64,000 nt of DNA from Escherichia phage iGC_PHA_EC001 (OR437326.1), one strand, 5' to 3'. Shown: positions 23,100 through 46,166, counted from the first letter of the stretch. Made by a program: numbers and translations. The notes: generated by a model from the sequence alone, not told the origin.

Positions 23100-23378
23100 T
23101 TAAAATGGTTCGTTAGTCTCCATCATATATTCTGCTTCTAGTTCTTCCATATGCTTTCTAAATTGGAAAGCAATTTCTGCTACAGTTACATTTAAATCTT
23201 TTTCAAAAACTTCTGTAGAGCCTTCATAAAAACGAATACCGTCAATTAAAAGCCCTCCGTGGTAATCCCAATCACTTTCACGAGAAAGCGGGTTAGGCTC
23301 TTCATAATAGTAATCCACCTCCACAACTAAGGCTTTCCCGTTACGAGTGGTGTATTCAAAATCAAAAGTGTTAATCAT
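23100..23378 (-). CDS. Hypothetical protein
   Basis: 92-aa ORF abutting neighbours. Confidence 0.3.
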   Translation of the reverse strand: MINTFDFEYTTRNGKALVVEVDYYYEEPNPLSRESDWDYHGGLLIDGIRFYEGSTEVFEKDLNVTVAEIAFQFRKHMEELEAEYMMETNEPF

Positions 23379-24322: not shown

Positions 24323-24329
24323 ACTTCAC

Positions 24330-25277: not shown

Positions 25278-25950
25278 GTGCCAGTGCCTCCTCATAGGAA
25301 ATTCGGATTTTCCCATTTTTAATATCCTCTAAAGATGCTTTATATTCTTCCCAGTTAATCCCGATAGCAGCTTCTTTCTCTTCTTTTGTCAGATTAGCAA
25401 AAGGCATAGGGTTGTTTCCAAAAACATCGTCTGGGTGGATATAAGCCATGATACGAAGTGGACAAGGTGTTGCCTGAATACCATGATTCAAACCAGCAGC
25501 TTGCAAACGGTGTCCCCATTCAGCATCTTCAAAACCATAGCCGTGAGTGTAAGGACGGAAATAACCCATCTTCTCAACAACGGCACGAGAATACATTGCA
25601 AATTGACACATTGCAAGTTCCCAGAGAATAACTTCTCCTTTGCTTCCAACAACTTTATCTTTGAAATACTCCGGCATACCAAAGAAATCCCATCCTCCAG
25701 AGACAGCTTGATCTACAAAGTATGTTTCCCATCCCTCCATGACTGGGTAGCAATCGTCGTCAAAAATAAACCAATAATCATAACCTTCTTCATAAAACTG
25801 GTGCATAAGTTCATTCCTGGCATAAGCTACACCTTTACGATCTGGATCGTTGAATACTCGAAAATCTGCACGTGGATCTGTTACAAGGTAGTCTTTAAGT
25901 GGACGGACACCTACAGTGATAACACCCACTCCAATTTTAATATTTTCCAT
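25267..25950 (-). CDS. Glycosyltransferase-like protein (GT-A/DxD type)
   Basis: GVAYARNELM and FDDDCYP acidic motif; YGFEDAEWGHR. Confidence 0.35.
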   Translation of the reverse strand: MENIKIGVGVITVGVRPLKDYLVTDPRADFRVFNDPDRKGVAYARNELMHQFYEEGYDYWFIFDDDCYPVMEGWETYFVDQAVSGGWDFFGMPEYFKDKVVGSKGEVILWELAMCQFAMYSRAVVEKMGYFRPYTHGYGFEDAEWGHRLQAAGLNHGIQATPCPLRIMAYIHPDDVFGNNPMPFANLTKEEKEAAIGINWEEYKASLEDIKNGKIRISYEEALAHVK

Positions 25951-25958
25951 TTTCTCTC

Positions 25959-26522
25959 CTAAATAGTTTTACTGTGATCATGACAGTGTAATAAATGATG
26001 TATAGACCGTTGAGGATTTGTTTGACCTAATCTGTAAATGTGAAACAGATACATTCCCCGCATCAATCCTAACCTCTTTCCTTTTTCATGTAAAGTGCGA
26101 GAGAAAATTAAGTCGAATTGGATAGATTTTTCTTCGAAAGGAATTTCATTCCACAATGATTTTCTAAAAAGCAAGAAGAAACCTGCCAGAGGTGTTCCGA
26201 AAGGAACTTCTTCAACACTCACTTTATGATATTCTCTTGCAATCTTAGCATATTCTATATGGTTTAGAATATCTGGATCATCATTAATTTGGTTAGAGAA
26301 AAGCTGATAACCACTGCCTAACCTGTTACAAGTTGCACCTATTACATCAAAAGGCGGGTTTGACATAACAAGCTCTTCAAGCATAGATGGTTGATCAGGT
26401 AGGAGGAACATTGTATCGGTATCTCTTAAACACACCCAACTATCATCTGGAAGAACGGCAATGGCTTCATTGATAGCCTTGCCGATATTTCCTGTCAGAT
26501 AGGGAGTAATATAATAAATCAT
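25959..26522 (-). CDS. Glycosyltransferase-like protein (tentative)
   Basis: CLRDTDTMFL acidic D-x-D-like motif; fourth member of the contiguous cluster. Confidence 0.25.
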   Translation of the reverse strand: MIYYITPYLTGNIGKAINEAIAVLPDDSWVCLRDTDTMFLLPDQPSMLEELVMSNPPFDVIGATCNRLGSGYQLFSNQINDDPDILNHIEYAKIAREYHKVSVEEVPFGTPLAGFFLLFRKSLWNEIPFEEKSIQFDLIFSRTLHEKGKRLGLMRGMYLFHIYRLGQTNPQRSIHHLLHCHDHSKTI

Positions 26523-27845: not shown

Positions 27846-28448
27846 TTATGGACATTCATACCATTCTTTTTTACCACCGAAGGCCATCACCACATCACAA
27901 ATATCCAGACCAGCTTTACCTACACCATATGCTTTCAGCTTCCATTCCCCATCTTCACGAACCAAGGAAGCCACGTGGCAGATTGTGTTGCCAGCTACTT
28001 CAGGAGCCAGGAAGTCAAAATCCAGAATTTCCACATTGCGCTCGGAGTCGAAGATTTTAAGCATACCTTCAGAAGCATGACCAAAACGTTTCAGACCTGT
28101 ATCATCATCAATGGTCAGAACAAAGGCAATCTCTTGTGCATCAGGAGAGATTTTAGCCAGAGTAATATCAATCTGCTCCATGCTGCCAGTTCCATCACGA
28201 ACATCGTCACCAGCGAAGGTAGAACGTTCAGGATCAAACTTGTTAGCATAGCAAACCAGATGACGTGCAGACAGCATTTCAGGATTACCAGCGGCATTGT
28301 GACGACAAACCAGTGCACTTACATCCAGATCCAGTTTAGAATCAGATTTCCAAGAGAATTCCAGGCGCAGTTCTTTCAGAGCCGGAGCAACTTTCTTCAG
28401 GGAAATTTTTTCGCTAGAGCCTTTTTTCAGGGAAATTTTATCAGTCAT
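27846..28448 (-). CDS. terD: TerD-family protein
   Basis: ISLKKGSSEKISLKK, DLDVSALVC and GEWKLKAYGVGKAGLDICDV match the TerD fold (E. coli TerD SLSKGGNVSLSK / DLDASAFLL / GEWKFRAVGQGYAGGLASVC). Confidence 0.8.
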   Translation of the reverse strand: MTDKISLKKGSSEKISLKKVAPALKELRLEFSWKSDSKLDLDVSALVCRHNAAGNPEMLSARHLVCYANKFDPERSTFAGDDVRDGTGSMEQIDITLAKISPDAQEIAFVLTIDDDTGLKRFGHASEGMLKIFDSERNVEILDFDFLAPEVAGNTICHVASLVREDGEWKLKAYGVGKAGLDICDVVMAFGGKKEWYECP

Positions 28449-28733: not shown

Positions 28734-28962
28734 TTCTTCCTCCTAATGTTATCTCCGGTTTGTATATACGAAGAATTATAGCATTTTCATTTTCTTTGTC
28801 AACCCATTCTTCATAATCGGGCCATACATGAATCTCTACTCTACTTACAATATCTTCCATTCGCACAGTCCCAATGAAATACTCTTTGAGACTGCGCATA
28901 ATGAAAGCTTCTCTCTCGCGCCAATAATTTTCTATGACTTGAGAGGCAAGCTCGTCGATCAT
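28714..28962 (-). CDS. Hypothetical protein
   Basis: 82-aa ORF overlapping both neighbours by a few codons. Confidence 0.3.
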   Translation of the reverse strand: MIDELASQVIENYWREREAFIMRSLKEYFIGTVRMEDIVSRVEIHVWPDYEEWVDKENENAIILRIYKPEITLGGRSVKLRN

Positions 28963-29753
28963 TTTTTAGCACCCACTTTAACAACCCACTCTCCGAACTC
29001 TTCAGATAAGAGTTTGTCATAAAGCTCTGAATCTGTCAAGTCTAAATCTTTAATGCCAATAAAACCAACATTATCATAAGCATTTGCCAGTTCTTTCAGG
29101 AAGCCAAACTTCTCATTACCAACGCCAACCATGAACCAATAAATAGGTTTATTCTTATTCTCTTCGATAAGACGACGAACAGCACTAGGATCACCATTCT
29201 CACCATCCGTCTGGAAGAATACAACACTAGGGGTAACGTCAGCACCTGGTTCAGATACAGCTACAACTTTTTCACGCTCTACAGACACTGTTTCAGTTTT
29301 ACCAAGCAGACGATTAAAGAAGCCTTTCTTTGGAGCCTCCTCTTGTACCACTTGTTTAGTGGTAATATATTTAGTAACAGTGCCAAAATACTCATCGTAG
29401 ATATCCGCCATTACAGGGGCGTAATTTGTTCCACCTCCGATACGAACATTACGCATACATTTACCAACATAGTCATCGTAAACATCTGCTGTTGCTGGAG
29501 TAAGCTCTTGGGAACTCGTATTGAAGGCCCACATATCAATTTGTTGATTATCGTCGAACAGCATACCAAAAGGAAGCAGTTTACCTACAAAATCACTCAC
29601 TACCCCACTAGAATATAGACCATGCATACTACCAGAAATATCTAGAGCACATGCTACACGAAGAACAATCTTACCTTCATTCAGGTTCTTATTCTTTTTC
29701 AGAGAGAAAGCAAGGTTTTCTTGACGTTTTTTCAGGCTGATTTTCTCGGACAT
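28959..29753 (-). CDS. von Willebrand factor A domain protein, TerF/TerY-like
   Basis: MIDAS motif ALDISGSM; N-terminal EKISLKK shared with the TerD gene; 264 aa. Confidence 0.65.
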   Translation of the reverse strand: MSEKISLKKRQENLAFSLKKNKNLNEGKIVLRVACALDISGSMHGLYSSGVVSDFVGKLLPFGMLFDDNQQIDMWAFNTSSQELTPATADVYDDYVGKCMRNVRIGGGTNYAPVMADIYDEYFGTVTKYITTKQVVQEEAPKKGFFNRLLGKTETVSVEREKVVAVSEPGADVTPSVVFFQTDGENGDPSAVRRLIEENKNKPIYWFMVGVGNEKFGFLKELANAYDNVGFIGIKDLDLTDSELYDKLLSEEFGEWVVKVGAKK

Positions 29754-30957: not shown

Positions 30958-31158
30958 TTACTCCTCCTCCTCCTCATTGAAGTCAATATCTGCAATGAGT
31001 TCGAATTTACGGAAGTTACGACAACCTTCATAAATATAACAATCACGACAAACTGCTAGAACACTTGGGGGATATATACCTCCCATCGGTGCGAATCGTT
31101 TTTCGTCATCATAACGGACACCAATGTCTTCATCAATTATATAGATACGGATTCTCAT
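30958..31158 (-). CDS. Hypothetical small Cys-containing protein
   Basis: 66 aa with CRDCYIYEGC and poly-Glu C-terminus. Confidence 0.3.
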   Translation of the reverse strand: MRIRIYIIDEDIGVRYDDEKRFAPMGGIYPPSVLAVCRDCYIYEGCRNFRKFELIADIDFNEEEEE

Positions 31159-32267
31159 TTACCAAGCCCTCGTTTCACAGCAGCTACCATCCCGTCTTCC
31201 AGAGATTGAACTTCATTAATATAATCAACACGAGCAGCACGGGCTTCCGTATTGATGCGGTTAGTTTCTTCCAACATCTTAACCAAGTTTTCCTGATCGT
31301 GACGCAGAGTTTCAATATCCAACACTTGACGGTTAGCCAGTGCTGCTGCTTCGATCTGATTCTGTGTGGCAAGATCGCTACCCAGTTTAATTGCTAGGTT
31401 AAATTCATCAAGAACGTTATTCTGCGTCTCTGCTGCTTTCATTTGACGTAAGCTCTCGATATACATTGAGAAGTTAGCAGAGTAAGCAGGAATAACATTA
31501 TTTACTATGTTACGCGCAGATCGCATTAAGCTTGCAGAAACTTTTTGCATACCTTGTACACGCGGTCCCATTTGGACACACAGTAGGCGCAATGCTTTTA
31601 AATCTGCAATACGAATCTCCAGAAGATCCAAAGTATCTCGGATCACTTGTCGCTGTTCTACTGCATCTTCTGGAAGAGCAGCCAAAGCTTGTTCTTCTTT
31701 TTCATAGGTTGCTGTTAGAAGCTGCATATCTCGGTTCAAACTTGCAGCATATTGTCCAATAGCTTGATGTAGCTTTTCAAGATATACCAAGGAATCTTCT
31801 TCTTTGCGAATATCCATTTGAAGGTTCTTTACCAACTCTTCAATACGGTTATTAACATTATCAAACTCCCCAAACAGGTCTTCTTTCATACCCATAACTT
31901 TTTTAATGAGTTTAGTAATACCCTTGCTTTGTTTAATAGAGTTTGGATCAAGTTGTTTTGCCTGTTTAATCAAAGCTGTGAGTCGTTCACTCATCTGATC
32001 GCCTTGATTACTACGTTGATGTTTTAATACCTCGGCATTCAAGGAGCGCAAGGTTGTTCCTGCCTCTGCCCCAATCTCTTCGATCTCTTGTCGGGTCATA
32101 GAAGGCAAAACTGGAACTTCTTGCGGTGCCGCTGGTGCATAAACAGGACTGGCATCTAACACGCTTGGAGCGAATACAGATTTACTTGCATCTGTTGTTG
32201 CAGCAAATACGCTCATTTCAGGCTTCTTCTGACCACCAGTAGCTGCTTTTAAAAATGGACTTGTCAT
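31155..32267 (-). CDS. TelA-like toxic-anion-resistance family protein (tentative)
   Basis: 370 aa, all-helical/coiled-coil character; QVLDIETLRHDQENLVKMLEE resembles the TelA C-terminal region as I recall it; sits inside the Ter gene context. Confidence 0.4.
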   Translation of the reverse strand: MTSPFLKAATGGQKKPEMSVFAATTDASKSVFAPSVLDASPVYAPAAPQEVPVLPSMTRQEIEEIGAEAGTTLRSLNAEVLKHQRSNQGDQMSERLTALIKQAKQLDPNSIKQSKGITKLIKKVMGMKEDLFGEFDNVNNRIEELVKNLQMDIRKEEDSLVYLEKLHQAIGQYAASLNRDMQLLTATYEKEEQALAALPEDAVEQRQVIRDTLDLLEIRIADLKALRLLCVQMGPRVQGMQKVSASLMRSARNIVNNVIPAYSANFSMYIESLRQMKAAETQNNVLDEFNLAIKLGSDLATQNQIEAAALANRQVLDIETLRHDQENLVKMLEETNRINTEARAARVDYINEVQSLEDGMVAAVKRGLGK

Positions 32268-32854
32268 TCTTCATTCTCCTCTTCTGCATCTCTTATATAT
32301 GGTGAAACACCGTACTCTTTAGCTACTTTAACCCAATCGTCCCATTTATACAACCATAATTTTCCTTCGGTCCCTTCTTTATCTGATTTCAACCACATAT
32401 TAGGTTGCTTACCTGGGTACATGCGATTAGGTTTACGATTATAACCTCTAACACATCTTGTCGCAAACCTATCTACCAGAACAAGAACATATTTATACTC
32501 GTGGTTCAACGGCTCTTTGGAAGTGGCTTTAGGATTAGCCCCTAATTCTGCTGCCAGTTTTTGCCAATGAGCACCGTGCCTACTAAACTTACCCATACAA
32601 CCATCAATAGCATGAGCAATTTCGTGCTTCATTGTATCCACGATCATATCTCTTGTGGAGTTCTTATGCAAGTGCCAATTTACAACAACAATTTTATCTC
32701 GGTAGTTGCACCAACCGAAAGAGTTATTCACTTTGTTTCTAACACAAGCTTTATATCCTGCTTCACGTAACATGTTGTAGTAAACAGGAAAATCTTCTTT
32801 TATTTCCTGCATCACTTCCCACCACAAGAGTTGCAAGTCTCTCTCGGTATGCAT
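32264..32854 (-). CDS. SprT-like zinc metallopeptidase domain protein
   Basis: HEIAHAI (HExxH) followed by HGAHWQKL, the SprT-like arrangement. Confidence 0.5.
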   Translation of the reverse strand: MHTERDLQLLWWEVMQEIKEDFPVYYNMLREAGYKACVRNKVNNSFGWCNYRDKIVVVNWHLHKNSTRDMIVDTMKHEIAHAIDGCMGKFSRHGAHWQKLAAELGANPKATSKEPLNHEYKYVLVLVDRFATRCVRGYNRKPNRMYPGKQPNMWLKSDKEGTEGKLWLYKWDDWVKVAKEYGVSPYIRDAEEENEE

Positions 32855-34437: not shown

Positions 34438-34479
34438 AAGTCTCTCCTATAAAATAGCCTCCCGAAGGAGGCTCATCTA

Positions 34480-35454
34480 TTAAACAGCAGCTTCTTCTTT
34501 TTCAGGGAAGATAAAGCTTGCAATAACACCAAGAGCTAATGTGCCTAGAACAATCATCAGACTTACGTTAGGGGAAATATCATGCGGGAGGAATGACCAC
34601 TTGGCATGAAGTGTTTCACCGAACGGGTGATACATAAGTTTAGCACCGACAAATACCAGAACCACAGCAACAGCTTTCTCTAAGTGAACCAGATATTTCA
34701 CAGCCACACTTAACACAAAGAAAAGTGCACGTAAACCAAGAACAGCCATCAGCATTGCAGAATAAACTAGCAGAGGTTCTTGTGTCACACCGATCACAGC
34801 CGGAACTGAATCAAAAGAGAAGACAATATCTGTAAGCTCAATAACAAACACACAAAGAAGAGCAGGAGTTGCATATTTAATACCATTCTTAATGGTGATG
34901 AACTTTTCACCATCCAGTGCATTGTGCACAGGCAGAACTTTACCTACTAAACGAACAGCCCAATGCTTAGAGTAATCAATATCCTCTTCTTCGTCACCAC
35001 CTTTGATGATAGCCACGGCAGACCAAGCTACAATCAAACCGAACAACACTTGGACCGACCAATGAAGGTTAAACAAAGCGGTCCCTGCTGCAACAAAAAT
35101 ACCTCGGAAGACAATGGCTCCTGCAATTCCCCAAAGTAAAATCTTATGTTGGAGATGTGTGCTCTTAATTCCAAAGCTTGCAAAAATTGCCATGAACACC
35201 ATCAGGTTATCTACAGAAAGACTCTTTTCCAACACATAGCCACTTAGGAAAAGCGCGGCAAACTCTTTACCATGTTCTACCCAAATGAATGCGTAATATC
35301 CTAAAGCTAAAGCAATCCAAAAAACAGACCAAAGCAAAGCAGATTTAATTCCAATTTCTTTATTCTCTTTATGACCAAAGAAATCAATACCAATAGACAA
35401 TGCTAAAATACCAACTAAAACAACTACATCAATAATGGGGAAACCGAGTTGCAT
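34480..35454 (-). CDS. terC: TerC-family integral membrane protein
   Basis: Multiple TM helices; EKSLSVDNLMVF signature; 324 aa. Confidence 0.8.
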   Translation of the reverse strand: MQLGFPIIDVVVLVGILALSIGIDFFGHKENKEIGIKSALLWSVFWIALALGYYAFIWVEHGKEFAALFLSGYVLEKSLSVDNLMVFMAIFASFGIKSTHLQHKILLWGIAGAIVFRGIFVAAGTALFNLHWSVQVLFGLIVAWSAVAIIKGGDEEEDIDYSKHWAVRLVGKVLPVHNALDGEKFITIKNGIKYATPALLCVFVIELTDIVFSFDSVPAVIGVTQEPLLVYSAMLMAVLGLRALFFVLSVAVKYLVHLEKAVAVVLVFVGAKLMYHPFGETLHAKWSFLPHDISPNVSLMIVLGTLALGVIASFIFPEKEEAAV

Positions 35455-35455
35455 T

Positions 35456-35530
35456 CTTTTCTCCTCTCTTTGCGGGGAACTATTCCCCGCTTCATGTGAT
35501 ATATCTTACTCTTTTTAAGAACTATGTCAA
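35456..35530 (-). promoter_or_regulatory. Promoter plus 5' stem-loop cassette upstream of terC
   Basis: On - strand: TTGACA, spacer, TAAGAT, then hairpin GCGGGGAA-tag-TTCCCCGC, then AGAGAGGAG and ATG; same architecture as the early-region cassettes. Confidence 0.5.
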
Positions 35531-35767: not shown

Positions 35768-36241
35768 TTAAAGTTTATAAATAGTCACATCGTGACCTGT
35801 TTTTACTAAAGTTTCTTCAATCATCACTTGGATGATAGCCCAATTACCTCCAGCATATCCAGCGCCAATCATAGGTAAGCCGATCTTACATTTTTGGTCA
35901 CGGAGAAGCAAATCATTAGCCATAGCTATTAGTGCATCATAAAGTGCATCATAGTCCAACTGACGACCTTTAGCATTGTATCCGTAACGGTATTGCCCGT
36001 ATAGATTATATACCAAAGGGTCTGATTGTTCGTCTGGCACCCCTAAACTAAAACAACCTAGTTTACTTTGATCACCAGCCATTGTGTCTAAGTCTGCTGC
36101 ATATGCGTAAGGAAATGCTCGTTTGATTTGTGGGGCAATACCTGCCCCCATATTACACATACAATTGCAACAATGAGCAATAACAGTTACTTCACCTGCT
36201 TTAGCGGCATCAATAAGATTACCTGTTTTAATTTTAAGCAT
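35768..36241 (-). CDS. Macro-domain protein (ADP-ribose binding/processing)
   Basis: Start at ATG 36241 with AAGGAG 8 nt upstream; VIAHCCNCMCNMGAGIAPQI and GLPMIGAGYAGGNWAIIQ match macro-domain glycine-rich loops. Confidence 0.7.
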   Translation of the reverse strand: MLKIKTGNLIDAAKAGEVTVIAHCCNCMCNMGAGIAPQIKRAFPYAYAADLDTMAGDQSKLGCFSLGVPDEQSDPLVYNLYGQYRYGYNAKGRQLDYDALYDALIAMANDLLLRDQKCKIGLPMIGAGYAGGNWAIIQVMIEETLVKTGHDVTIYKL

Positions 36242-36254
36242 TTTTAGCTCCTTA

Positions 36255-37082
36255 TTACAGAATGTGTTGTTTTGTGTAACGATCCAAGAATTCAAAGTTT
36301 TCAGCATACTTTGAAATTCGGTTGTAACCTTCTCCCAAGCATCCAAAGAAAAGTTGCTCTACATAGTAATGTGGCAATTGGCTAAGAATGATTTTGAAGT
36401 CTTCATGATTTTGGCCCATAAGATACTTAATAGGACGAACAAGACACTGTGCATCACGTTCTTCATTAATCATTTTAACAAACGCTTCTGGTGTATTAAT
36501 GTAGTTAAAATTCAGTTTAGCTTCGGTATCTGCTTGATTACCTTCGTATTTTGCAAAATACAGGAAGTAAACATCATTTTTAACTTGATTTTCATCAAGG
36601 ATCTCAATCAGTTTGTCTTCATGCGTTCCAGTGATATTTACATCATCAATGAATACAAGCTTCTTATCACCCCAGAATTCTTTGTTGCAGTAGAATGTAT
36701 CCCCATCAATAAGTTTCTTACGACTAGCTTTATCCAAGAAACCATAATCGTTGATATAGCTAACTTTACGATGAATAATGTCCAGTTCTGCTGAACGACC
36801 TTGATCATATTGTGATTGCAACATATTAAAGTAATTAATAAAATGATCTGTCATCATTGTTGCAGCATTATGCACATGGTTATAAGGAGAAGGAATGATA
36901 ACAAATTGTTCCCCAATATGTTTCATTGCCACTTGAGCAAAAAACTGAAGTGCCAATTCTTTACCCATACGACGCGCAGCTTGGTTACTACCAAATTTCA
37001 ATTTTGAATAATCTTGGATATCAAAAGTAGCAGTTTCCAGGTCATCAAATTTATTTGCAAAAATTTGAGTTTGATTACGCAT
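36255..37082 (-). CDS. Phosphoribosyltransferase-like protein (type I PRTase fold)
   Basis: KKLVFIDDVNITGTHE fits the PRPP-binding motif (hydrophobic run, DD, then T-G-T); ATG overlaps the HAD gene stop. Confidence 0.5.
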   Translation of the reverse strand: MRNQTQIFANKFDDLETATFDIQDYSKLKFGSNQAARRMGKELALQFFAQVAMKHIGEQFVIIPSPYNHVHNAATMMTDHFINYFNMLQSQYDQGRSAELDIIHRKVSYINDYGFLDKASRKKLIDGDTFYCNKEFWGDKKLVFIDDVNITGTHEDKLIEILDENQVKNDVYFLYFAKYEGNQADTEAKLNFNYINTPEAFVKMINEERDAQCLVRPIKYLMGQNHEDFKIILSQLPHYYVEQLFFGCLGEGYNRISKYAENFEFLDRYTKQHIL

Positions 37083-37731
37083 TTACAATTTCTCCTCTTT
37101 TAAGTTTCTCTAGTAAGTCGTTAGGGTTCTTAATATGACAGAAGTTAAATCCTAAGTCAACACATTTTCCATCATATTCTTCACTATCGCCTACGTGCAA
37201 CACTTCGTGCCCTAACAGAGGGATCGGAGAATACGTGAGCGTGCGAGCAAAGAATCGCGGATCTGGTTTACAAAGTAAAGCTTCATCCGAGAAATGGGTG
37301 AACTCAAAACAATTCCAACTATCAAACTTACAAGCACGACGCAGGATATCCCCTGATATGAAGTTGGTATTGCTCTTAATACTCAAATCATAACGCCCCG
37401 AAAGATACAGCAAGTACATCGGCAGATCCACGGCTACGTGTGGTGGAAACTTAAGGAACCACTGTTCACACTCGAAACGAAGCTTTGCAGACTTCCAAGG
37501 CGTTATCCCAAGTTCAGAACCAAGTCTTTCCCAGGCATATGCTGCACACTCGGCTTTGCCTTGAAGTGCTGCATTATCCAGTTCCTTTTTGATCTTTTTA
37601 TAAGCTGCTCTTGCTTCCACTTCCGTAATATCTCCATATTTTGCGATAGTCCAGGCTCGCATGTCTGCATAATTGGAGTTTGCTGTGATCAGTGTGTTCC
37701 ATACATCAAAAGAGATATGTTTAATAGTCAT
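37075..37731 (-). CDS. HAD-superfamily hydrolase (phosphatase)
   Basis: N-terminal ISFDVWNTLI (HAD motif I DxDx[TV]); 218 aa. Confidence 0.55.
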   Translation of the reverse strand: MTIKHISFDVWNTLITANSNYADMRAWTIAKYGDITEVEARAAYKKIKKELDNAALQGKAECAAYAWERLGSELGITPWKSAKLRFECEQWFLKFPPHVAVDLPMYLLYLSGRYDLSIKSNTNFISGDILRRACKFDSWNCFEFTHFSDEALLCKPDPRFFARTLTYSPIPLLGHEVLHVGDSEEYDGKCVDLGFNFCHIKNPNDLLEKLKRGEIVNA

Positions 37732-37732
37732 A

Positions 37733-38338
37733 TTAAGCCCACCATGCGTCTAAGTTAAGATTACTGTCCACTACCACTTGTTCTATGTGGTAGCCTTTTA
37801 TCTGTATCCCACTGTTCAAGAGCATATCATACGCTTCATTGAAACGCAACTTATCTTCTGCGGAATATAAGCGAGCATTATAAAATCGGTAATCAACTTC
37901 TTCAGCATTAGAAGAAATACGGAAGAAGTTTGTTTCTACTTCGGGATCACTTGCTGAAGTCTTAATGTGAACTTCTCCGTAATTTTCTTTACTTAGATCC
38001 ATGAAAAGAACACAGGCAACATGTTTAAACATTCGTTCCAGTTTGTAACGAACAACATTGAAACCTGCATTCTCAAGTTTTTCTACACACTGCAACATTA
38101 AAGTAGTGTCGAGATCGCTTTGATACTTTGTTAACATACGATCACGTTGAGACTTTGTATCCCGATGTAAATCAATTGTTGTGCATTTGGCACCAATAAT
38201 CTTAGCTGCTTTCATCAACTCTTCAGAACTAACGTTAGATAAAGTAAGATGAAAATGGGCTTTCCACACTTTTTTAGCAGGGACACCAAAAGATTTATCC
38301 CCACTATTCGGCATGTTGACTACTACACTATGTTGCAT
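37733..38338 (-). CDS. Hypothetical protein, first gene of the macro/PRTase/HAD operon
   Basis: 201 aa; contains HFHLTL and VHIKTS, only weakly reminiscent of the two H-x-T/S-x motifs of 2H phosphoesterases. Confidence 0.35.
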   Translation of the reverse strand: MQHSVVVNMPNSGDKSFGVPAKKVWKAHFHLTLSNVSSEELMKAAKIIGAKCTTIDLHRDTKSQRDRMLTKYQSDLDTTLMLQCVEKLENAGFNVVRYKLERMFKHVACVLFMDLSKENYGEVHIKTSASDPEVETNFFRISSNAEEVDYRFYNARLYSAEDKLRFNEAYDMLLNSGIQIKGYHIEQVVVDSNLNLDAWWA

Positions 38339-38558: not shown

Positions 38559-39029
38559 TTAATCTGATTGCCAACCACTTGCCGTTTTGGTCCATAATCT
38601 TTGATTATCTGACCCTCTGAAAGGTTTTGTAGTTGGATTGTTTATTTCATACTTTCCGTCTACAATAATGTCAACAAGATTTTTAATATACAAAGGCACT
38701 TCCTCAAAAGTATATCCTGTATACACCATTATATCTTTGCTTGACCCATAAACGTCTCTAACCTTTTCTATAAGGTTTTTAACATTGTAAATATTCTGCG
38801 GATCTAATGGCTCTCCTCCTAAAATTGTTAAACCTTTTACAAACGGTCTTGACAAATCTTTTAAAACTTGCTCTACATTTTCGTGAGTGAACGGTTTCCC
38901 ATAAGAATAAGACCAGGCTTTTTGGTTAAAACAGCCACGACAACCGTGGCTACAACCACTAACCCAGAGGGAGCACCTAACTCCCTCACCATTAATAAGA
39001 TCTACAGGTTCATATCCTGCAAAATTCAA
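38559..39029 (-). CDS. nrdG: Anaerobic ribonucleotide reductase activating protein
   Basis: Radical-SAM-type Cys cluster SGCSHGCRGCFN; 156 aa directly downstream of nrdD with a 4-nt overlap. Confidence 0.75.
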   Translation of the reverse strand: MNFAGYEPVDLINGEGVRCSLWVSGCSHGCRGCFNQKAWSYSYGKPFTHENVEQVLKDLSRPFVKGLTILGGEPLDPQNIYNVKNLIEKVRDVYGSSKDIMVYTGYTFEEVPLYIKNLVDIIVDGKYEINNPTTKPFRGSDNQRLWTKTASGWQSD

Positions 39030-40840
39030 AAATGTTTCTCCCTTTGCAAAACTTCCTGCATTTTACCTTTGTTGTAAGGGCGTGAATTAGGGGCAGAAAG
39101 ATACCCTGACACACGTCTAACTACAGAAATAGTTTCTTCTTCATGGTTGCCACAATCAGGACACTCAAACCCTTTAGCCGTTGCCTTAAATTCTCCATGA
39201 AAACCACACTTAAAGCATTGATCCACGGGCTGATTAATACCAAAATAGTGAATATGTTCATAAGCGTAGTCTACTAAAGTCTCCAAAGCTTCTAAGTTAT
39301 TCTTTAAGTTTGGTGTTTCGACATAACTTATGTTACCACCATTACTAATCTGTGCAAAACCTGCTTCATAATCCCATTTTTCAAAAGGATTTGTTACCAA
39401 CCACACAGGTTGATGAAAAGAGTTAGTAAGATAGTCTCTTTCTACCAAACCTGGGTATTTTTCATTTAAAGCTGTTGCAAACTTATAGCACAAAGATTCT
39501 GCTGGAGTTCCATAGAGACTAAACGCCAAATTAGATCGTTCTTTAAACACAGCACACACATCTTTCATATGTTGCAGAATGCTTTTACCAAGTTCCTTTT
39601 TATCTTTTTCTTCTGGATAAAGGATTTCCAAAGCTTCGGCAAGACCTACATAACCAATACTAATAGAAGCATAACCACCTTCAAACAAAACACCAATTTC
39701 ATCATTGGCATTTAAACGCGCTAAAGCCCCTTCCATGAAAAGAATAGGGTTTTCAGATGCTTTGGTATGTCTGATACGGTTTACACGTAGCATGTGAGCA
39801 TCGTAGGCTATCTCCATATGTTTATTAAGAAGATCGGTGAAAGATTCTCCTTTACTTCTCGCTTCCGCAGCGATCAGAGGTAAGTTGATAGAAACTACTC
39901 CAAGGTTGAATCGTCCATCGTATTTTTCTCCTTGTTCGGTGGCATAGTACGACAAAAAGGAACGACAACCCATACTCGTAACAGTACCATCTGCTGATCC
40001 CGTAACTTCTTTGTTCAAAGGAACAGAAATAAAATCTGGATAAATACGATCAGCACAACATGCCAAAGCTTGTTGCTTAAGGTCATAGTTAGGATCACTA
40101 GGTTTCATGTTAACACCTTCTTGTAAAAAGAAAATAACTTTAGGGAATACAGGCGTTACATGATCTTTGCCTAGACCGTTACTATGCACTTTAAGATAGT
40201 TAGCTGTAATCATTCTGCCAAAAACAGAGGTATCCAGACCCATACTGATTGTAATAAAAGGAGATTGTCCATTAACACTCATTAAAGTATTAACCTGATA
40301 CAAGAGAGTTTGCATAGCATCATATACATCTTGTTCGGTCATTTCCAGGGCTTCTTTCCTTGCATAACAACCGTAGCGACGTTTGGTTATCTCCATGTTT
40401 TTAAGGAAACTAGCTTCAACATAAGGACTAAGACCTTTATCAATGTGCGCACACGTCTGACCTCCATACTGACTGGAGGCAACAGCTTGGATGATTTGAG
40501 TTAGCACTGTGGTAGCTACTCCAATAGATTTTGGTTTTTCTATCTGTGCGGCTCCGATCTTAAAACCATTCTCTAACATATCTTGATAATTAACAAGACA
40601 ACAGTTTGTAAGAGGAGAGAGTAGATAATCCAAGTCGTGAATATGTCCAAAACCTTCTGTATGCCACTCTGACAAGTTTTTTGGCAGTATCTGTGTCATT
40701 GCCATATGTTTGCTTAAAATCCCCGCCAAGAGATCCCTATGCGTGTTAACGAGGTGGGAAGGTTTGTTTGCATTCTCTCTAGTGTATGTTTCTGAAGTGC
40801 GATCTAAAAAAGAAAAAACATCTTGGTACAAATCTTTCAT
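39026..40840 (-). CDS. nrdD: Anaerobic ribonucleoside-triphosphate reductase (class III)
   Basis: 604 aa; C-terminal zinc ribbon CFKCG..CPDCG and glycyl-radical-type tail RRVSGYL. Confidence 0.85.
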   Translation of the reverse strand: MKDLYQDVFSFLDRTSETYTRENANKPSHLVNTHRDLLAGILSKHMAMTQILPKNLSEWHTEGFGHIHDLDYLLSPLTNCCLVNYQDMLENGFKIGAAQIEKPKSIGVATTVLTQIIQAVASSQYGGQTCAHIDKGLSPYVEASFLKNMEITKRRYGCYARKEALEMTEQDVYDAMQTLLYQVNTLMSVNGQSPFITISMGLDTSVFGRMITANYLKVHSNGLGKDHVTPVFPKVIFFLQEGVNMKPSDPNYDLKQQALACCADRIYPDFISVPLNKEVTGSADGTVTSMGCRSFLSYYATEQGEKYDGRFNLGVVSINLPLIAAEARSKGESFTDLLNKHMEIAYDAHMLRVNRIRHTKASENPILFMEGALARLNANDEIGVLFEGGYASISIGYVGLAEALEILYPEEKDKKELGKSILQHMKDVCAVFKERSNLAFSLYGTPAESLCYKFATALNEKYPGLVERDYLTNSFHQPVWLVTNPFEKWDYEAGFAQISNGGNISYVETPNLKNNLEALETLVDYAYEHIHYFGINQPVDQCFKCGFHGEFKATAKGFECPDCGNHEEETISVVRRVSGYLSAPNSRPYNKGKMQEVLQREKHF

Positions 40841-40940
40841 TATTAATCCTTATTTTGTGAGTAGAACTATTATTCTACCTCTTCCAACCGAAAAAAGCTT
40901 TGAGGAAAATCAAAAAAGGCGCAAAGTGCGCCTTTAAGTT

Positions 40941-42359
40941 TTATTGTTTGGAGAGGAATTGTCTTCCCATGATCTTACCGTTCTTTACAGCGGTCCCATC
41001 GTGTCCATTATAATCCCAAGTTCCATCAATGTTACGCAAGAAGCTATCACGAACAGTGTAGGCTTTACCGTTCTCTACTTTACTTTCTTCAACAATAATC
41101 GCCATAACAAGCTTATTTTCAATTTCGGTAGTAACCGATTCTTTAATACCCTCTGTAACTTCACGATCATATTGGATATAAACTCGCTCCTCGGTCACTT
41201 GCACGTCTACCACATTTTTAAATGTGTATGTCTGCTGTGTAGTGTAAAGGACACGAACAACACTCTTCTTACCTACTGGCGGCTTCTTACGAGGCTTACG
41301 GTAACGTGGTTTAGGGTTGTTAGTTGGAAGCCAACCAACAATATCCCGCTCATATCCAACATGACCCCAAGTGAAATGCGTAGCCGATCCACTATCCGTA
41401 GTTCCGTCACGAAAGAGAACTTCTACGTGACCACCACAAGGGCGGTGTCCACCATTATTATAGTTGTATTTTGCCGTGCGCGGGAGAATGAAGTATTCTT
41501 TAATCGCCCACTCTTCCAGATTGTCGATATTCCAAGTGAATACTGTTCCCTTAGCAACATCTGTTTGACCATTGTTGAAGCGAACCTGCACGAAATCTTC
41601 TGAAGGCATAACACCTGTGTTCGGCAGATATTCAAATGCAGTATCTTCCGCTACAAACTGTTCTTCCTCTTGCTCCTCAATACTTGGCACAGGCGCAGCT
41701 TCATCGTATTTCGCAGCAAACATATTTTTAAATTCTTGGGCCGTGACTTGTACAAGGCCGCGATCACCAGTAGCAGCAGAGTGTGGGCGTGGTAAATCCC
41801 CAACTTCAATATGCATTGCATCTAAACCTGCTTGACGATCAAAGAAGATAACCTTGCGGAATTGTTTATCTTTATATTGTGGCAGTTCATACATACTTGG
41901 GTCGATTGTCTTCAAACGTTCAGCATCTTCTGGCTTCCAGAAGCTTTTACCTGTTGCAAATCTAAAGTCTACCAGTAGTTTAACAACATCTCCTAATGAT
42001 AAACTATCTGCATCTACGAAAACGTCTTCGATTCCCAATAACCCTGATTTCTTAAGAATCAGATCTAACATGTAACCTCCTGTGGTTTGTTCTGCGTCTG
42101 GATAACGATCAACACTGGTGCTGGTTACACCGTTTATTTCACCAGTGGAGGCATTGTAGGAAATATATGGGAAGGTCATATCGTTCATTGCAAAATCACC
42201 TGAACAGGTTGGATCATCTTCTCCCTCCCAGCCATACACCTTCACAATACCTTCACACAATTTGTCATACACACCAGCGCGACGTGCTGCTTCAGCAACT
42301 TCCTGTTTACGGGCAAATTTATTAATCATGATTCCTCCTGTTAATTGCCATAGATGCAC
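40941..42359 (-). CDS. Hypothetical protein
   Basis: 472-aa ORF; true start may be the internal MINKFARKQ; Lys/Arg/Pro-rich internal segment. Confidence 0.35.
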   Translation of the reverse strand: MHLWQLTGGIMINKFARKQEVAEAARRAGVYDKLCEGIVKVYGWEGEDDPTCSGDFAMNDMTFPYISYNASTGEINGVTSTSVDRYPDAEQTTGGYMLDLILKKSGLLGIEDVFVDADSLSLGDVVKLLVDFRFATGKSFWKPEDAERLKTIDPSMYELPQYKDKQFRKVIFFDRQAGLDAMHIEVGDLPRPHSAATGDRGLVQVTAQEFKNMFAAKYDEAAPVPSIEEQEEEQFVAEDTAFEYLPNTGVMPSEDFVQVRFNNGQTDVAKGTVFTWNIDNLEEWAIKEYFILPRTAKYNYNNGGHRPCGGHVEVLFRDGTTDSGSATHFTWGHVGYERDIVGWLPTNNPKPRYRKPRKKPPVGKKSVVRVLYTTQQTYTFKNVVDVQVTEERVYIQYDREVTEGIKESVTTEIENKLVMAIIVEESKVENGKAYTVRDSFLRNIDGTWDYNGHDGTAVKNGKIMGRQFLSKQ

Positions 42360-45623: not shown

Positions 45624-46166
45624 TTATTTTGTGTTGACCTTATTTCGCATTAACCTGTGGGATACAGAGTTGCGAGATCTGTTTAGAACCTTACCAATCC
45701 CTGCATGACTATACCCTTCACTATTTAACTTTTCAAGAATCTGGTCTTCTTCCTCTGTCCAGTAGCGGCGTTTAGCTTGTCTATCATCCACACCATACAT
45801 GATAGGTTGCTTTACATCCATCACTTTTAGCAATCTGACAGCCTCTTCCGCTTTCTCTTTTTTGAAACGGAGATAAGGGATTAAATTCTCAAGCAATCTT
45901 ATCACACTTTCTCTGCTGCTAACATTGATATTATACATCAAATTATCATATTTTTCAGCCCAAGCTACGCGCGATGTGAAAGAGACAGTATATCCATAAC
46001 TTTCCAACTCTTTAGCCAAATCGGTCATTTCTTCTGCCGATCTCTCGTGTTGTGTAAGGTTTACTGTGTAGGAGTCTGAAGTCTCCCTGTTTCTGCTTAT
46101 AATAGATCCATCACAATCTATGCAACCTGCGTAGTAAGCATAAAACAGTTGTTCTTTTATGTCCAC
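45624..46166 (-). CDS. LAGLIDADG-like homing endonuclease with C-terminal helix-turn-helix (tentative)
   Basis: N-terminal YYAGCIDCDGSI resembles LAGLIDADG; C-terminal RRYWTEEEDQIL..HRLMR resembles a Myb/HTH module. Confidence 0.35.
   Translation of the reverse strand: MDIKEQLFYAYYAGCIDCDGSIISRNRETSDSYTVNLTQHERSAEEMTDLAKELESYGYTVSFTSRVAWAEKYDNLMYNINVSSRESVIRLLENLIPYLRFKKEKAEEAVRLLKVMDVKQPIMYGVDDRQAKRRYWTEEEDQILEKLNSEGYSHAGIGKVLNRSRNSVSHRLMRNKVNTK

What the first reader, a model, noticed from the sequence alone, without database searches (positions are those of the whole stretch)
35768..38338. Four-gene operon: unknown protein, HAD phosphatase, phosphoribosyltransferase, macro domain, with overlapping stop/start codons
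The four genes are translationally coupled (ATG of PRTase overlaps the HAD stop; macro start 14 nt after the PRTase stop with AAGGAG). PRTase plus phosphatase plus an ADP-ribose-binding macro domain is a coherent small pathway. Two hypotheses: (a) the Ter-associated synthesis of a ribosylated or nucleoside-like metabolite; (b) an ADP-ribose/NAD-centred counter-defence that recycles or removes ADP-ribose-derived products made by NAD-depleting or ADP-ribosylating immune systems. The first gene has only weak 2H-phosphoesterase-like H-x-T/S-x hints; if real, it would pair with the macro domain as in Appr>p to Appr-1''-p to ADP-ribose processing.
Basis: inference. Interest (0 to 1): 0.8.

Follow-up and report, generated by a model that had tools for sequence, protein, structure and literature searches.

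The report
Phage Ter-linked ribosyl-metabolite genes plus two add-ons
The four genes are real and tightly packed, but they are three separate modules rather than one pathway: a HAD–phosphoribosyltransferase pair tied to the phage's tellurite-resistance-like (Ter) genes, a common ADP-ribose-removing macro domain, and an uncharacterised two-histidine enzyme-like protein.

Summary
The window is a phAPEC8-like Escherichia phage (Phapecoctavirus). The four minus-strand genes and their junctions (1 nt gap, 8 nt overlap, 13 nt gap with AAGGAG) are confirmed. Such junctions are the norm here: 41 of 51 in the homologous 29-kb gene run of phage phAPEC8 are 15 nt or less. Terminator-like hairpins bound a longer unit, nrdD to TerC.

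Comparative genomics splits the set into three parts.

1. HAD→PRTase_3 (ComF-like) is adjacent in every locus examined, in phages and in Rhizobium plasmids. It lies in or co-occurs with TerC/TelA/TerD/vWA-TerF clusters. This fits the published prediction of a Ter-associated nucleoside-like metabolite, whose product is still unknown. The HAD lacks the Asp+2 acid/base residue (D-x-W-x-T).

2. The macro domain is SCO6735/DarG-class, with H23, N26, Q83 and G128 conserved. It stands alone in about 2,980 phage records. It is probably an ADP-ribosyl-removing counter-defence enzyme like AdfM.

3. The 201-aa protein founds a family without a Pfam or PDB match. It has invariant HxHxT, RxKxE and ExHxK motifs. 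Members are fused to NUDIX or HD domains, or sit beside PARG or Acb1 genes. It also matches two PADLOC models named 'AbiEi'. 2H membership is unproven.

Overall this is a new member of a known kind, with one uncharacterised family inside it.

The parts
37733..38338 (-). 201-aa protein ('U201'). It belongs to an uncharacterised family with invariant H28, H30 (HFHLT), T70, R97-x-K99-x-E101, E122-x-H124-x-K126, S142, E186, D191 and D197. It is predicted to be a two-lobed alpha+beta enzyme.
   Evidence: - No Pfam, NCBIfam or PDB sequence match; it matches phrog_22504.
- The exhaustive HMM search found 257 cluster representatives.
- Invariant residues come from a 75-sequence alignment.
- AlphaFold2 model has pLDDT 83.
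- It matches PADLOC models named 'AbiEi' at 3.6e-13.
- Relatives are fused to NUDIX, HD or HTH domains.
37075..37731 (-). HAD-superfamily hydrolase. Motif I is F-D9-V-W11-N-T13 (nucleophile kept, Asp+2 replaced by Trp). Motif II is S120-NTNF, motif III is K155-P, and motif IV is H179-VGD-x4-D187.
   Evidence: Supported (PDB 2om6 shares FDVWNTL). An alignment of 18 PRTase-linked HADs shows these motifs. The gene lies immediately upstream of the PRTase in every locus.
36255..37082 (-). ComF-like type I phosphoribosyltransferase (Pfam PRTase_3). It has an invariant PRPP loop, F144-IDDVNITGTHE-155, and a conserved flexible loop, H104-RKVSYINDYGFL-116.
   Evidence: - PF15610, E = 2e-41.
- A 40-sequence alignment shows the invariant loops.
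- AlphaFold2 model has pLDDT 92.
35768..36241 (-). Stand-alone macro domain of the ALC1-like/TARG1/DarG/SCO6735 class. It has H23, N26, Q83 and G128, which equal SCO6735 H24, N27, Q85 and G128.
   Evidence: - PF01661.
- PDB matches: 5e3b 9e-13, TARG1 2e-6, Thermus aquaticus DarG 3e-6.
- NCBIfam DarG 1e-8 and PADLOC DarG 4e-10.
- Residue roles are taken from PMC9411070.
35534..35755 (-). 73-aa predicted membrane protein lying between the macro gene and TerC. It is conserved next to the macro gene in Stephanstirmvirinae.
34480..35454 (-). TerC/Alx-family membrane protein, part of the Ter context.
   Evidence: PF03741 at 3e-40 and TIGR03718 at 3e-95.
31155..32267 (-). TelA-family protein, part of the Ter context. 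It overlaps the upstream SprT-like gene (32264-32854).
   Evidence: PF05816 at 3e-33 and PF10263 at 4e-9.
28959..29753 (-). vWA-TerF-like protein, part of the Ter context.
   Evidence: PF10138 at 8e-38.
27846..28448 (-). TerD-domain protein, part of the Ter context.
   Evidence: PF02342 at 3e-28. Its distribution among phage genera mirrors that of the PRTase.
38559..40840 (-). nrdD and nrdG (anaerobic ribonucleotide reductase and its activase), upstream in the same terminator-bounded unit.
34456..34473 (-). Terminator-like hairpin after TerC. Its partner hairpin lies at 40915-40935, before nrdD. A promoter-like site lies at 35503-35530.
   Evidence: consensus scan only. phAPEC8 annotates a promoter at the equivalent site.

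Best explanation
The four genes are co-transcribed neighbours within a longer leftward unit (nrdD to TerC). They form a mosaic of three functionally separable modules.

(1) HAD and PRTase_3 form an obligate, translationally coupled two-enzyme module.
- The ComF-like type I PRTase uses PRPP to put 5-phosphoribose on an unknown acceptor that is base-like. The fold and PRPP loop are shown; the substrate is inferred.
- The HAD enzyme then processes the 5'-phosphate to give a nucleoside-like small molecule. This step is inferred, and the missing Asp+2 makes simple phosphatase chemistry uncertain.
- In this phage the module belongs with the TerC, TelA, TerD and vWA-TerF genes. Its product is the predicted ligand or signal of a phage-borne Ter membrane apparatus. 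The published prediction is that this apparatus is used against superinfecting phages or stress; that is inferred and untested.

(2) The macro domain is an independent, very widespread phage gene of the SCO6735/DarG class. It most likely removes ADP-ribose from DNA (thymidine-linked, DarT2-type) or from another macromolecule, as a counter-defence like AdfM. Its catalytic residues are shown; its activity is inferred.

(3) The 201-aa protein is an autonomous accessory enzyme of a new family. Its two pseudo-symmetric halves each carry a histidine motif. It is probably a metal-independent phosphoesterase acting on a nucleotide or an ADP-ribose-derived substrate (inferred).
For: Pair and Ter link:
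- PF15610 at 2e-41.
- The PRPP loop is invariant in 40 homologues.
- The fold is ComFC/type I PRTase-like.
- HAD lies directly upstream of the PRTase in all of roughly 25 loci, drawn from at least 12 lineages, including Xanthomonas, Rhizobium, Caulobacter and Brevundimonas phages and Rhizobium plasmids.
- The gene order TerC, x, TerD, x, vWA-TerF, HAD, PRTase is seen in three unrelated contigs.
- TerD and PRTase have near-identical counts by phage genus: 148 against 156 records overall, Escherichia 105/104, Brevundimonas 7/7, Caulobacter 4/4. This holds even where the genes lie 28-165 kb apart.
- The published prediction is cited through PMC7824862 and PMC5512222.

Macro independence and class:
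- It occurs in 2,980 phage records.
- 0.5-0.9 kb of other sequence is inserted between the PRTase and macro genes in L013 and L014.
- The SCO6735 catalytic residues are conserved.
- AdfM is a precedent for a phage macro domain acting against DarTG2.

201-aa protein autonomy:
- It is absent from phi92.
- It stands alone in 110 Barba phage records and in L004.
- It lies 14-15 kb from the PRTase in two metagenomic phages.
- It overlaps an Acb1 gene in L002.
- NUDIX fusions occur in six loci, one followed by a PARG gene.
- Thirteen residues are invariant across 75 sequences.
- The two halves align so that H30-x-T matches H124-x-K.
Against: - No product, substrate or phenotype is known for any of the four genes. 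The Ter-metabolite idea is itself only a computational prediction.
- Rhizobium phages (11 records) and Rhizobium/Sinorhizobium plasmids carry HAD–PRTase with no detectable TerD or annotated Ter genes. The pair therefore does not strictly depend on Ter.
- The HAD lacks the general acid/base Asp+2 in all 18 sequences: Trp in 17 and Tyr in 1.
- The 201-aa family and PRTase_3 are both rare, yet they share a genome in four or five lineages. This leaves room for a looser functional link.
- Macro follows the PRTase in all Stephanstirmvirinae, and the 201-aa family repeatedly neighbours ADP-ribose enzymes. A cooperative role for the two add-ons is therefore not excluded.
Confidence: 0.55

Rival explanations
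1. All four proteins form one ADP-ribose/NAD-centred counter-defence pathway. The 201-aa enzyme would open or trim an ADP-ribose-derived immune product such as Appr>p or a cADPR isomer. The macro domain would remove a 1''-phosphate or ADP-ribosyl group. PRTase plus HAD would rebuild or recycle a ribosyl nucleotide such as NMN or NR.
For: - Relatives of the 201-aa protein are fused to NUDIX in six loci, one followed within 13 nt by a microbial PARG gene. Others lie beside Acb1 and NADAR, or near SIR2.
- In phage 3300041405_000148 a macro gene lies 3 kb from the 201-aa homologue.
- NAD-salvage-type genes lie near HAD–PRTase in two other contexts: PnuC with an AAA_28 protein in L011, and a NUDIX protein annotated as 'NMNAT' in Rhizobium phages.
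- The 201-aa family and PRTase_3 share genomes in several lineages.
Against: - The four genes vary independently. Macro occurs in 2,980 records against 156 for the PRTase, phi92 lacks the 201-aa gene, and Barba phages lack the PRTase.
- The PRTase is PRTase_3, not Nampt or NAPRTase, and shows no such Pfam hit.
- A phosphatase acting on NMN would work against NAD rebuilding.
- The macro domain is of the DarG/SCO6735 class, which removes ADP-ribose from macromolecules, rather than the Poa1p-type Appr-1''-p phosphatase class.
Confidence: 0.12
2. HAD–PRTase is an auxiliary nucleotide or ribosylation gene pair that works independently of Ter. It might make or salvage an unusual nucleoside, or ribosylate a non-base acceptor from PRPP. 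Its expression with nrdDG would reflect nucleotide metabolism, and its proximity to Ter would be only synteny.
For: - The pair lies in the same terminator-bounded unit as nrdD and nrdG.
- The pair occurs without Ter in Rhizobium phages, next to DHFR, PurA-like and NUDIX genes. It also occurs in Rhizobium plasmids.
- The Sinorhizobium context holds glycosyltransferase, radical SAM, epimerase, GMC oxidoreductase and UbiA prenyltransferase genes. My reading is that this resembles a PRPP-fed glycan pathway.
- The HAD shows weak similarity to the YjjG nucleotidase.
Against: - The pair is directly contiguous with TerC/TerD/vWA-TerF in unrelated contigs.
- It co-occurs genome-wide with TerD in jumbo phages even when the genes are unlinked.
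- Pfam PRTase_3 was defined from Ter contexts; this rests on my own recollection and was not checked with a tool here.
Confidence: 0.15
3. The 201-aa protein is an orphan antitoxin-like enzyme. On this reading, bacterial relatives would be the 'AbiEi' partners of AbiEii/MenT-type nucleotidyltransferase toxins, and the phage copy would neutralise or reverse such an abortive-infection toxin. This would parallel the neighbouring DarG-like macro domain.
For: - The window protein and all 75 family members tested match PADLOC models PDLC02277 and PDLC02279, which are named AbiEi. The matches are full length, with E-values down to 6e-30.
- One relative carries an N-terminal HTH domain, as many antitoxins do.
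- Phage orphan antitoxins AdfN and AdfM are precedents.
Against: - There is no Pfam AbiEi match and no PDB AbiEi match, and the predicted fold has no winged helix-turn-helix domain.
- No AbiEii neighbour was seen in any locus read.
- The family is nearly absent from 100,044 species genomes and from plasmids.
- The basis of the PADLOC label could not be checked because the contig look-ups were down.
Confidence: 0.1
4. The ComF-like PRTase is not a small-molecule enzyme. Instead it would act on or bind DNA, as ComFC does. For example, it might work with the nearby glycosyltransferases in modifying or handling phage DNA.
For: - Four glycosyltransferase genes lie 9-12 kb downstream, and one has a weak match to TET-associated glycosyltransferase.
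Against: - The acidic pair and TGT phosphate loop of catalytic PRTases are invariant.
- The obligate HAD partner fits small-molecule chemistry.
- The glycosyltransferases are not linked to the pair in other lineages.
Confidence: 0.05

Closest known systems
Ter-associated biosynthetic module. This comprises PRTases plus a HAD phosphoesterase, predicted to make a nucleoside-like metabolite (Anantharaman, Iyer & Aravind 2012). Its presence in phages was noted by Iyer et al. 2021 (PMC7824862).
   Same: The PRTase is ComF-like (Pfam PRTase_3) and is paired with a HAD hydrolase. The pair is embedded among TerC, TelA, TerD and vWA-TerF genes. [quoted passage not shown]
   Different: - Only the minimal two-gene core is present. 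No ATP-grasp enzyme, TIM-barrel lyase or second PRTase was found in the window.
- tblastn did not find this PRTase on enterobacterial ter plasmids; it hit only Rhizobium/Sinorhizobium plasmids and one Hymenobacter plasmid.
- The HAD has D-x-W-x-T instead of D-x-D-x-T.
- The pair also occurs without Ter genes.
SCO6735 (Streptomyces coelicolor macrodomain, PDB 5E3B), the DarG2 macrodomain, and phage AdfM.
   Same: It is the best solved-structure match (9e-13). The residues essential in SCO6735 (H24, N27, Q85, G128) are conserved as H23, N26, Q83 and G128. SCO6735 and DarG2 remove thymidine-linked ADP-ribose from DNA, and AdfM is a phage macrodomain that defeats DarTG2.
   Different: - It has Gln where DarG, TARG1 and AdfM have the catalytic Lys.
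- It lacks the C-terminal DarT-binding domain of DarG.
- The SCO6735 surface lysines K34 and K89 are not conserved.
- No activity or DarTG phenotype has been tested for this phage group.
2H phosphoesterases (LigT/ThpR, CPDase, Acb1).
   Same: Two pseudo-symmetric halves each carry a histidine motif on a beta-strand. The first, H-F-H-L-T-L, resembles the ThpR motif F-H-P-H-I-T-L. Like 2H enzymes, the family is associated with macro, NUDIX and PARG proteins, as in the Appr>p pathway.
   Different: - The second motif is H-x-K, not H-x-T/S.
- hhalign gives 5% probability against ThpR and 0.9% against Acb1.
- The motif sits on the first strand rather than an inner strand. This last point is inferred from my recollection of LigT topology.
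NARP1/NARP2 phage NAD+ reconstitution pathways and RyDEP.
   Same: These are phage-encoded, use PRPP or PRTase logic, and counter NAD-depleting or ADPR-signalling immunity.
   Different: The PRTase here is a type I ComF-like enzyme. It is not Nampt or Namat, and no Adps or NMNAT gene is present in the cluster. RyDEP is an RyR-domain glycosidase unrelated to any of the four proteins.

Membership tests
Ter-associated PRTase–HAD biosynthetic module | The PRTase belongs to the ComF-like clade (Pfam PF15610 PRTase_3). | tested here: met
Ter-associated PRTase–HAD biosynthetic module | A HAD-fold phosphoesterase gene is adjacent. | tested here: met
   HAD lies directly upstream in every locus. HAD motifs II-IV and the nucleophile are conserved.
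Ter-associated PRTase–HAD biosynthetic module | Genomic linkage to TerD, TerC, TelA and vWA-TerF genes. | tested here: met
   All four lie within 9 kb in the window. They are contiguous with the pair in L011, L012 and L031. TerD co-occurs with the PRTase by genus. Rhizobium phages and plasmids are exceptions.
Ter-associated PRTase–HAD biosynthetic module | The full module has ATP-grasp, TIM-barrel C-C lyase and a second PRTase. This composition is recalled from the 2012 paper, which could not be read here. | tested here: not met
   No such Pfam domains were found in the window ORFs scanned between 23 and 47 kb. The 2012 paper was not available.
Ter-associated PRTase–HAD biosynthetic module | It produces a nucleoside-like metabolite that acts on Ter proteins. 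| not testable with these tools
   This requires biochemistry and metabolomics.
Type I phosphoribosyltransferase | A PRPP-binding loop made of a hydrophobic strand, an acidic pair and a T-G-T phosphate loop. | tested here: met
   L-V-F-I-D146-D147-V-N-I-T151-G-T153. These residues are invariant in 40 homologues.
Type I phosphoribosyltransferase | The PRTase core fold. | tested here: met
HAD phosphatase | Motif I D-x-D-x-[TV], comprising the nucleophile and the Asp+2 general acid/base. | tested here: not met
   The motif is F-D9-V-W11-N-T13. Position Asp+2 is Trp in 17 of 18 PRTase-linked HADs and Tyr in one. The nucleophile Asp is invariant.
HAD phosphatase | Motifs II (S/T), III (K) and IV (acidic, GDxxxD). 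| tested here: met
   S120-NTNF, K155-P and H-V-G-D182-x4-D187 are conserved.
ALC1-like macrodomain (TARG1/DarG/SCO6735) | A macro-domain profile match, with nearest neighbours in this class. | tested here: met
   PF01661 at 23.1 bits against a cut-off of 22. PDB matches: SCO6735 9e-13, TARG1 2e-6, Thermus aquaticus DarG 3e-6. PADLOC DarG at 4e-10.
ALC1-like macrodomain (TARG1/DarG/SCO6735) | SCO6735-type active site (H24, N27, Q85, G128). | tested here: met
   H23, N26, Q83 and G128 align with them. Residue roles are taken from PMC9411070.
DarG antitoxin / AdfM | A catalytic lysine (DarG K80, AdfM K78). | tested here: not met
   The position is Gln83.
DarG antitoxin / AdfM | A C-terminal DarT-binding domain (DarG only), or a demonstrated anti-DarTG2 activity. 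| tested here: not met
   The protein is 157 aa and consists of the macro domain only. The NCBIfam DarG match covers only residues 3-49, at 34.6 bits against a cut-off of 250. Activity is not testable here.
2H phosphoesterase (for the 201-aa protein) | Two H-x-[TS]-x motifs. | tested here: not met
   The first motif, H30-L-T32-L, fits. The second is H124-I-K126-T. Both are invariant across 75 sequences.
2H phosphoesterase (for the 201-aa protein) | A sequence or profile relationship to 2H families. | tested here: inconclusive
   The window protein has no hit. Two of 75 relatives hit PF13563 and PF02834 at E about 0.007-0.009. hhalign gives 5% against ThpR and 0.9% against Acb1. The internal halves align at P = 5.6e-4.
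2H phosphoesterase (for the 201-aa protein) | The LigT-like bilobed fold. | tested here: not met
AbiEi antitoxin (type IV TA) | A match to AbiEi models. | tested here: inconclusive
   PADLOC PDLC02277 and PDLC02279 match at 3.6e-13 and 3.1e-12. However, there is no Pfam AbiEi hit and no PDB AbiEi hit.
AbiEi antitoxin (type IV TA) | An adjacent AbiEii (DUF1814) nucleotidyltransferase toxin gene. | tested here: not met
   None is present in the window or in any phage locus read. Bacterial members could not be examined.
NARP1/NARP2 NAD+ reconstitution | A Nampt/Namat-type PRTase together with Adps or NMNAT. | tested here: not met
   The PRTase hits only PRTase_3. No Nampt, NAPRTase, PRPP-synthetase or NMNAT domain is present in the cluster.

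The most novel reading that the evidence does not exclude
[quoted passage not shown] Its signature is HxHxT, RxKxE and ExHxK, and it has 257 or more sequence clusters. On this reading, phages deploy it, alone or fused to NUDIX or beside macro, PARG or Acb1 genes, to destroy an ADP-ribose- or nucleotide-derived immune product, or to reverse a nucleotidyltransferase toxin. Separately, the minimal HAD–PRTase_3 pair of a tractable E. coli phage would make the long-predicted but never identified Ter ligand.
Probability: 0.25. Interest if true: 0.75.

Novelty: new member of a known kind. Interest (0 to 1): 0.45.

Why it matters
The Ter (tellurite-resistance, phage-inhibition) system has lacked a mechanism for about 30 years, and its predicted nucleoside-like product has never been identified. 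Here the biosynthetic part is reduced to two coupled genes in easily grown E. coli phages such as phAPEC8 and phi92. That makes a direct metabolomics or in-vitro test feasible.

The cluster also yields two further leads. One is a candidate anti-DarT macro enzyme of the Gln-type SCO6735 class. The other is an enzyme-like phage family with no Pfam or solved-structure match, whose repeated neighbours are enzymes that process ADP-ribose. Both are testable leads for phage counter-defence.

Tried and rejected
- The Foldseek afdb50 library was not installed.
- PMC4104200, the 2012 Ter paper, is not held.
- Profile searches of the 201-aa family against PDB sequences found nothing meaningful.
- hhalign against E. 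coli ThpR and against the neighbouring Acb1 was insignificant.
- Alignments A2 and A5 were too diverse for pattern scans.
- Viral-contig scans for the 'HSH' subfamily and for P0104 found nothing.
- The single genome-contig scan returned one uninformative myxobacterial MAG locus.
- tblastn of a bacterial-type relative against plasmids found nothing.
- The third homologue search with the profile returned essentially the same close set.
- Contig look-ups needed to test the AbiEi lead failed six times.
- I considered and rejected RyDEP and Acb5 as identities for the 201-aa protein. They differ in size, fold, key residues and host range.
- I rejected NARP1/2 as an identity for the PRTase.
- Literature searches found no experimental work on these genes in Stephanstirmvirinae or on Ter PRTase/HAD.

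Full report
**Identity of the window.** The 5.1 kb around the finding is 96-99.4% identical to dozens of phAPEC8-like Escherichia phages (Phapecoctavirus, Stephanstirmvirinae). In phAPEC8 the four genes are gp047 to gp050. They lie between nrdD/nrdG and a TerC gene, inside a run of 52 co-directional genes.

**Observation.**
- The four ORFs are on the minus strand at 38338..37733, 37731..37075, 37082..36255 and 36241..35768.
- The junctions are a 1-nt spacer, an 8-nt overlap (ATGCGTAA, preceded by GAGGAG) and a 13-nt spacer containing AAGGAG. The description is therefore correct.
- It is not distinctive. In the phAPEC8 run, 41 of 51 junctions are 15 nt or less, 25 overlap and the median is 0.
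- Terminator-like hairpins on the coding strand lie before nrdD (40935-40915) and after TerC (34473-34456). A promoter-like site lies before TerC. The likely transcription unit is therefore longer than four genes. These are consensus matches only.

**What the proteins are: PRTase.**
- It matches Pfam PRTase_3 ('PRTase ComF-like') at 2e-41.
- Forty homologues keep an invariant PRPP loop, F-I-D-D-V-x-I-T-G-T-H-E, and a conserved loop, H-R-K-V-S-Y-x-N-D-Y-G-F-L. The loop falls in the only lower-confidence stretch of a pLDDT-92 model.

**What the proteins are: HAD.**
- The HAD protein is weak in Pfam but clearly a HAD.
- An alignment of 18 PRTase-linked HADs shows the nucleophile Asp and motifs II-IV conserved. 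The Asp+2 acid/base residue is replaced by Trp in 17 and Tyr in one.
- 'Phosphatase' is therefore a family-level inference, not a secure call.

**What the proteins are: macro domain.**
- Its best solved relative is SCO6735 (9e-13). TARG1 and Thermus aquaticus DarG follow at about 1e-6.
- The residues shown to be essential in SCO6735 (H24, N27, Q85, G128; PMC9411070) align with H23, N26, Q83 and G128.
- SCO6735 and DarG2 remove thymidine-linked ADP-ribose from DNA. A phage DarG2-like macrodomain, AdfM, was recently shown to defeat DarTG2.

**The Ter context.**
- Downstream in the window are TerC/Alx, an SprT-like protease, TelA, vWA-TerF-like and TerD genes.
- This is the Ter network for which Anantharaman et al. 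(2012) predicted a PRTase/HAD-made nucleoside-like metabolite.
- Iyer et al. [quoted passage not shown]
- I found no experimental work on this.

**Comparative test of the 'operon'.** I collected about 25 loci with a PRTase_3 homologue. They came from isolate phages, viral metagenomic contigs, other assemblies and plasmids. I mapped window proteins onto them.
- HAD lies directly upstream of the PRTase in all of them, usually overlapping it.
- Ter genes lie within 10 kb in all Stephanstirmvirinae-type loci and in seven other contigs. Three contigs show the order TerC, x, TerD, x, vWA-TerF, HAD, PRTase.
- Where Ter genes are not nearby (CcrColossus, Bambus, XaC1), TerD is elsewhere in the same genome. 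The genus-level counts of TerD and PRTase hits are almost identical.
- The exceptions are Rhizobium phages and Rhizobium/Sinorhizobium plasmids, which carry the pair without detectable Ter genes.
- Macro homologues occur in 2,980 phage records. They follow the PRTase only in Stephanstirmvirinae-like phages, sometimes with 0.5-0.9 kb of other sequence inserted between.
- The 201-aa gene is absent from phi92-like phages.
- It stands alone in 110 Rheinheimera Barba records, which have no PRTase hit, and it has no PRTase within 10 kb in L004, although a PRTase homologue lies elsewhere on that contig.
- It overlaps an Acb1 gene in another phage, and lies 14-15 kb from the PRTase in two metagenomic phages.
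- The four-gene set is therefore a lineage-specific juxtaposition. Only HAD–PRTase is a conserved unit.

**The 201-aa protein.**
- It has no Pfam, NCBIfam or PDB sequence match.
- An exhaustive profile search found 257 cluster representatives.
- A 75-sequence alignment, going down to 25% identity, keeps H28, H30, T70, R97, K99, E101, E122, H124, K126, S142, E186, D191 and D197 invariant.
- The AlphaFold2 model (pLDDT 83) shows two alpha+beta halves. Profile comparison of the halves aligns H30-x-T32 with H124-x-K126 and E101 with E186, at P = 5.6e-4. This suggests an internal duplication with one histidine from each half.
- The architecture is reminiscent of 2H phosphoesterases, and the first motif resembles the ThpR motif FHPHITL.
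- However, no 2H structure is retrieved, the profile probabilities are low, and only two of 75 relatives give sub-threshold 2H Pfam hits. Membership is unproven.
- Relatives are fused to NUDIX, to a RelA/SpoT-type HD domain, or to an HTH domain.
- One NUDIX fusion is followed 13 nt later by a microbial PARG gene. Other neighbours include Acb1, NADAR and SIR2 genes, and genes homologous to a DUF4326 gene.
- Unexpectedly, all 75 members match two PADLOC models named 'AbiEi'. I could not verify what those models represent. No AbiEii neighbour was seen anywhere, and the family is almost absent from isolate genomes and plasmids.

**Mechanism proposed.**
- Shown: a catalytically intact ComF-like PRTase obligately paired with a HAD enzyme; the Ter linkage; a macro domain with the SCO6735 active site; and an enzyme-like new family.
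- Inferred: PRPP-dependent ribosylation of an unknown acceptor, followed by phosphate processing, gives a nucleoside-like Ter ligand.
- Inferred: the macro domain removes ADP-ribose from DNA or other macromolecules as counter-defence.
- Inferred: the 201-aa protein is a histidine-based phosphoesterase acting on a nucleotide or ADP-ribose-derived substrate.
- Alternatives are listed with probabilities in the rival explanations. They are one NAD/ADP-ribose pathway, a Ter-independent nucleotide or ribosylation role for the pair, an orphan AbiE-type antitoxin, and a DNA-directed ComF-like role.

**Verdict.** In kind, the cluster is a new member of a computationally described system. Its value lies in being a minimal, tractable entry point to the unsolved Ter metabolite, and in exposing an uncharacterised phage enzyme family.

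Noticed in passing
window 37705-37707 (HAD D9) and the W11 codon; alignment of L005-L032 HADs: All PRTase-linked HAD proteins have motif I D-x-W-x-T (Tyr once) instead of D-x-D-x-T. They therefore lack the usual general acid/base residue. The solved archaeal protein 2om6 shares FDVWNTL.
   Followed up: partly
window 37733-38338; PADLOC PDLC02277 and PDLC02279: The 201-aa family matches two PADLOC HMMs labelled 'AbiEi' at full length (75 of 75 members). It has no similarity to Pfam or PDB AbiEi and no AbiEii neighbour in any locus read. The origin of the label is unexplained.
   Followed up: partly
L040 4111-5982 (metagenome contig Ga0209170_1000675): A NUDIX fusion of the 201-aa domain is followed 13 nt later by a microbial-type PARG gene and then a family A DNA polymerase. 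In L039 the fusion follows a 1,494-aa protein with an adenosine-deaminase domain.
   Followed up: partly
window 23378-26522: Four consecutive glycosyltransferase-like genes lie downstream of the Ter genes. One has a weak match (E = 0.001) to TET-associated glycosyltransferase. Their target is unknown.
   Followed up: no
window 45624-46166 (-): A 180-aa ORF has weak LAGLIDADG_3 and HTH_38 matches (both below the Pfam cut-offs). It appears to occupy the position that gp037 holds in phAPEC8. That gene is homologous (E = 1e-41) to a gene flagged as DUF4326, but is annotated 'NrdA-like'. Homologues of that DUF4326 gene lie 2-8 kb from the 201-aa gene in three other phage contexts.
   Followed up: partly
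window 32264-32854 and 31155-32267: An SprT-like metalloprotease gene overlaps the start of TelA by 4 nt. It is present in Phapecoctavirus and some Klebsiella-phage relatives, but was not detected in phi92.
   Followed up: no
L036 (Sinorhizobium plasmid NZ_CP120375.1) 2492-18780: The HAD–PRTase pair sits among glycosyltransferase, radical SAM, NAD-dependent epimerase, SMR transporter, GMC oxidoreductase and UbiA prenyltransferase genes. This set is reminiscent of PRPP-fed decaprenyl-phospho-arabinose-type pathways. That comparison rests on my recollection and was not tested.
   Followed up: no
Records: Records named Campylobacter, Acinetobacter and Pseudomonas phages, and 'Dompiswa phage', appear among the close matches to these E. 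coli phages. The listed Acinetobacter and Campylobacter records are 98-99% identical over the 5.1-kb query. The host labels look doubtful.
   Followed up: no
window 40941-42359 (-): The 472-aa ORF upstream of nrdD is annotated 'ribonucleotide reductase' in phAPEC8 RefSeq but has no Pfam match at E of 0.001 or less.
   Followed up: partly
L005 2218-4296 (phi92): The nrdD gene of phi92 is annotated as split or spliced into two pieces, whereas the window's nrdD is a single 604-aa ORF.
   Followed up: no
L048 4238-7715 and L002 17990-19318: Prohibitin/Band_7 (SPFH) genes lie next to or near the 201-aa homologue in two unrelated phage contigs. A DinG/XPD-like helicase gene overlaps its start in L048.
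   Followed up: no
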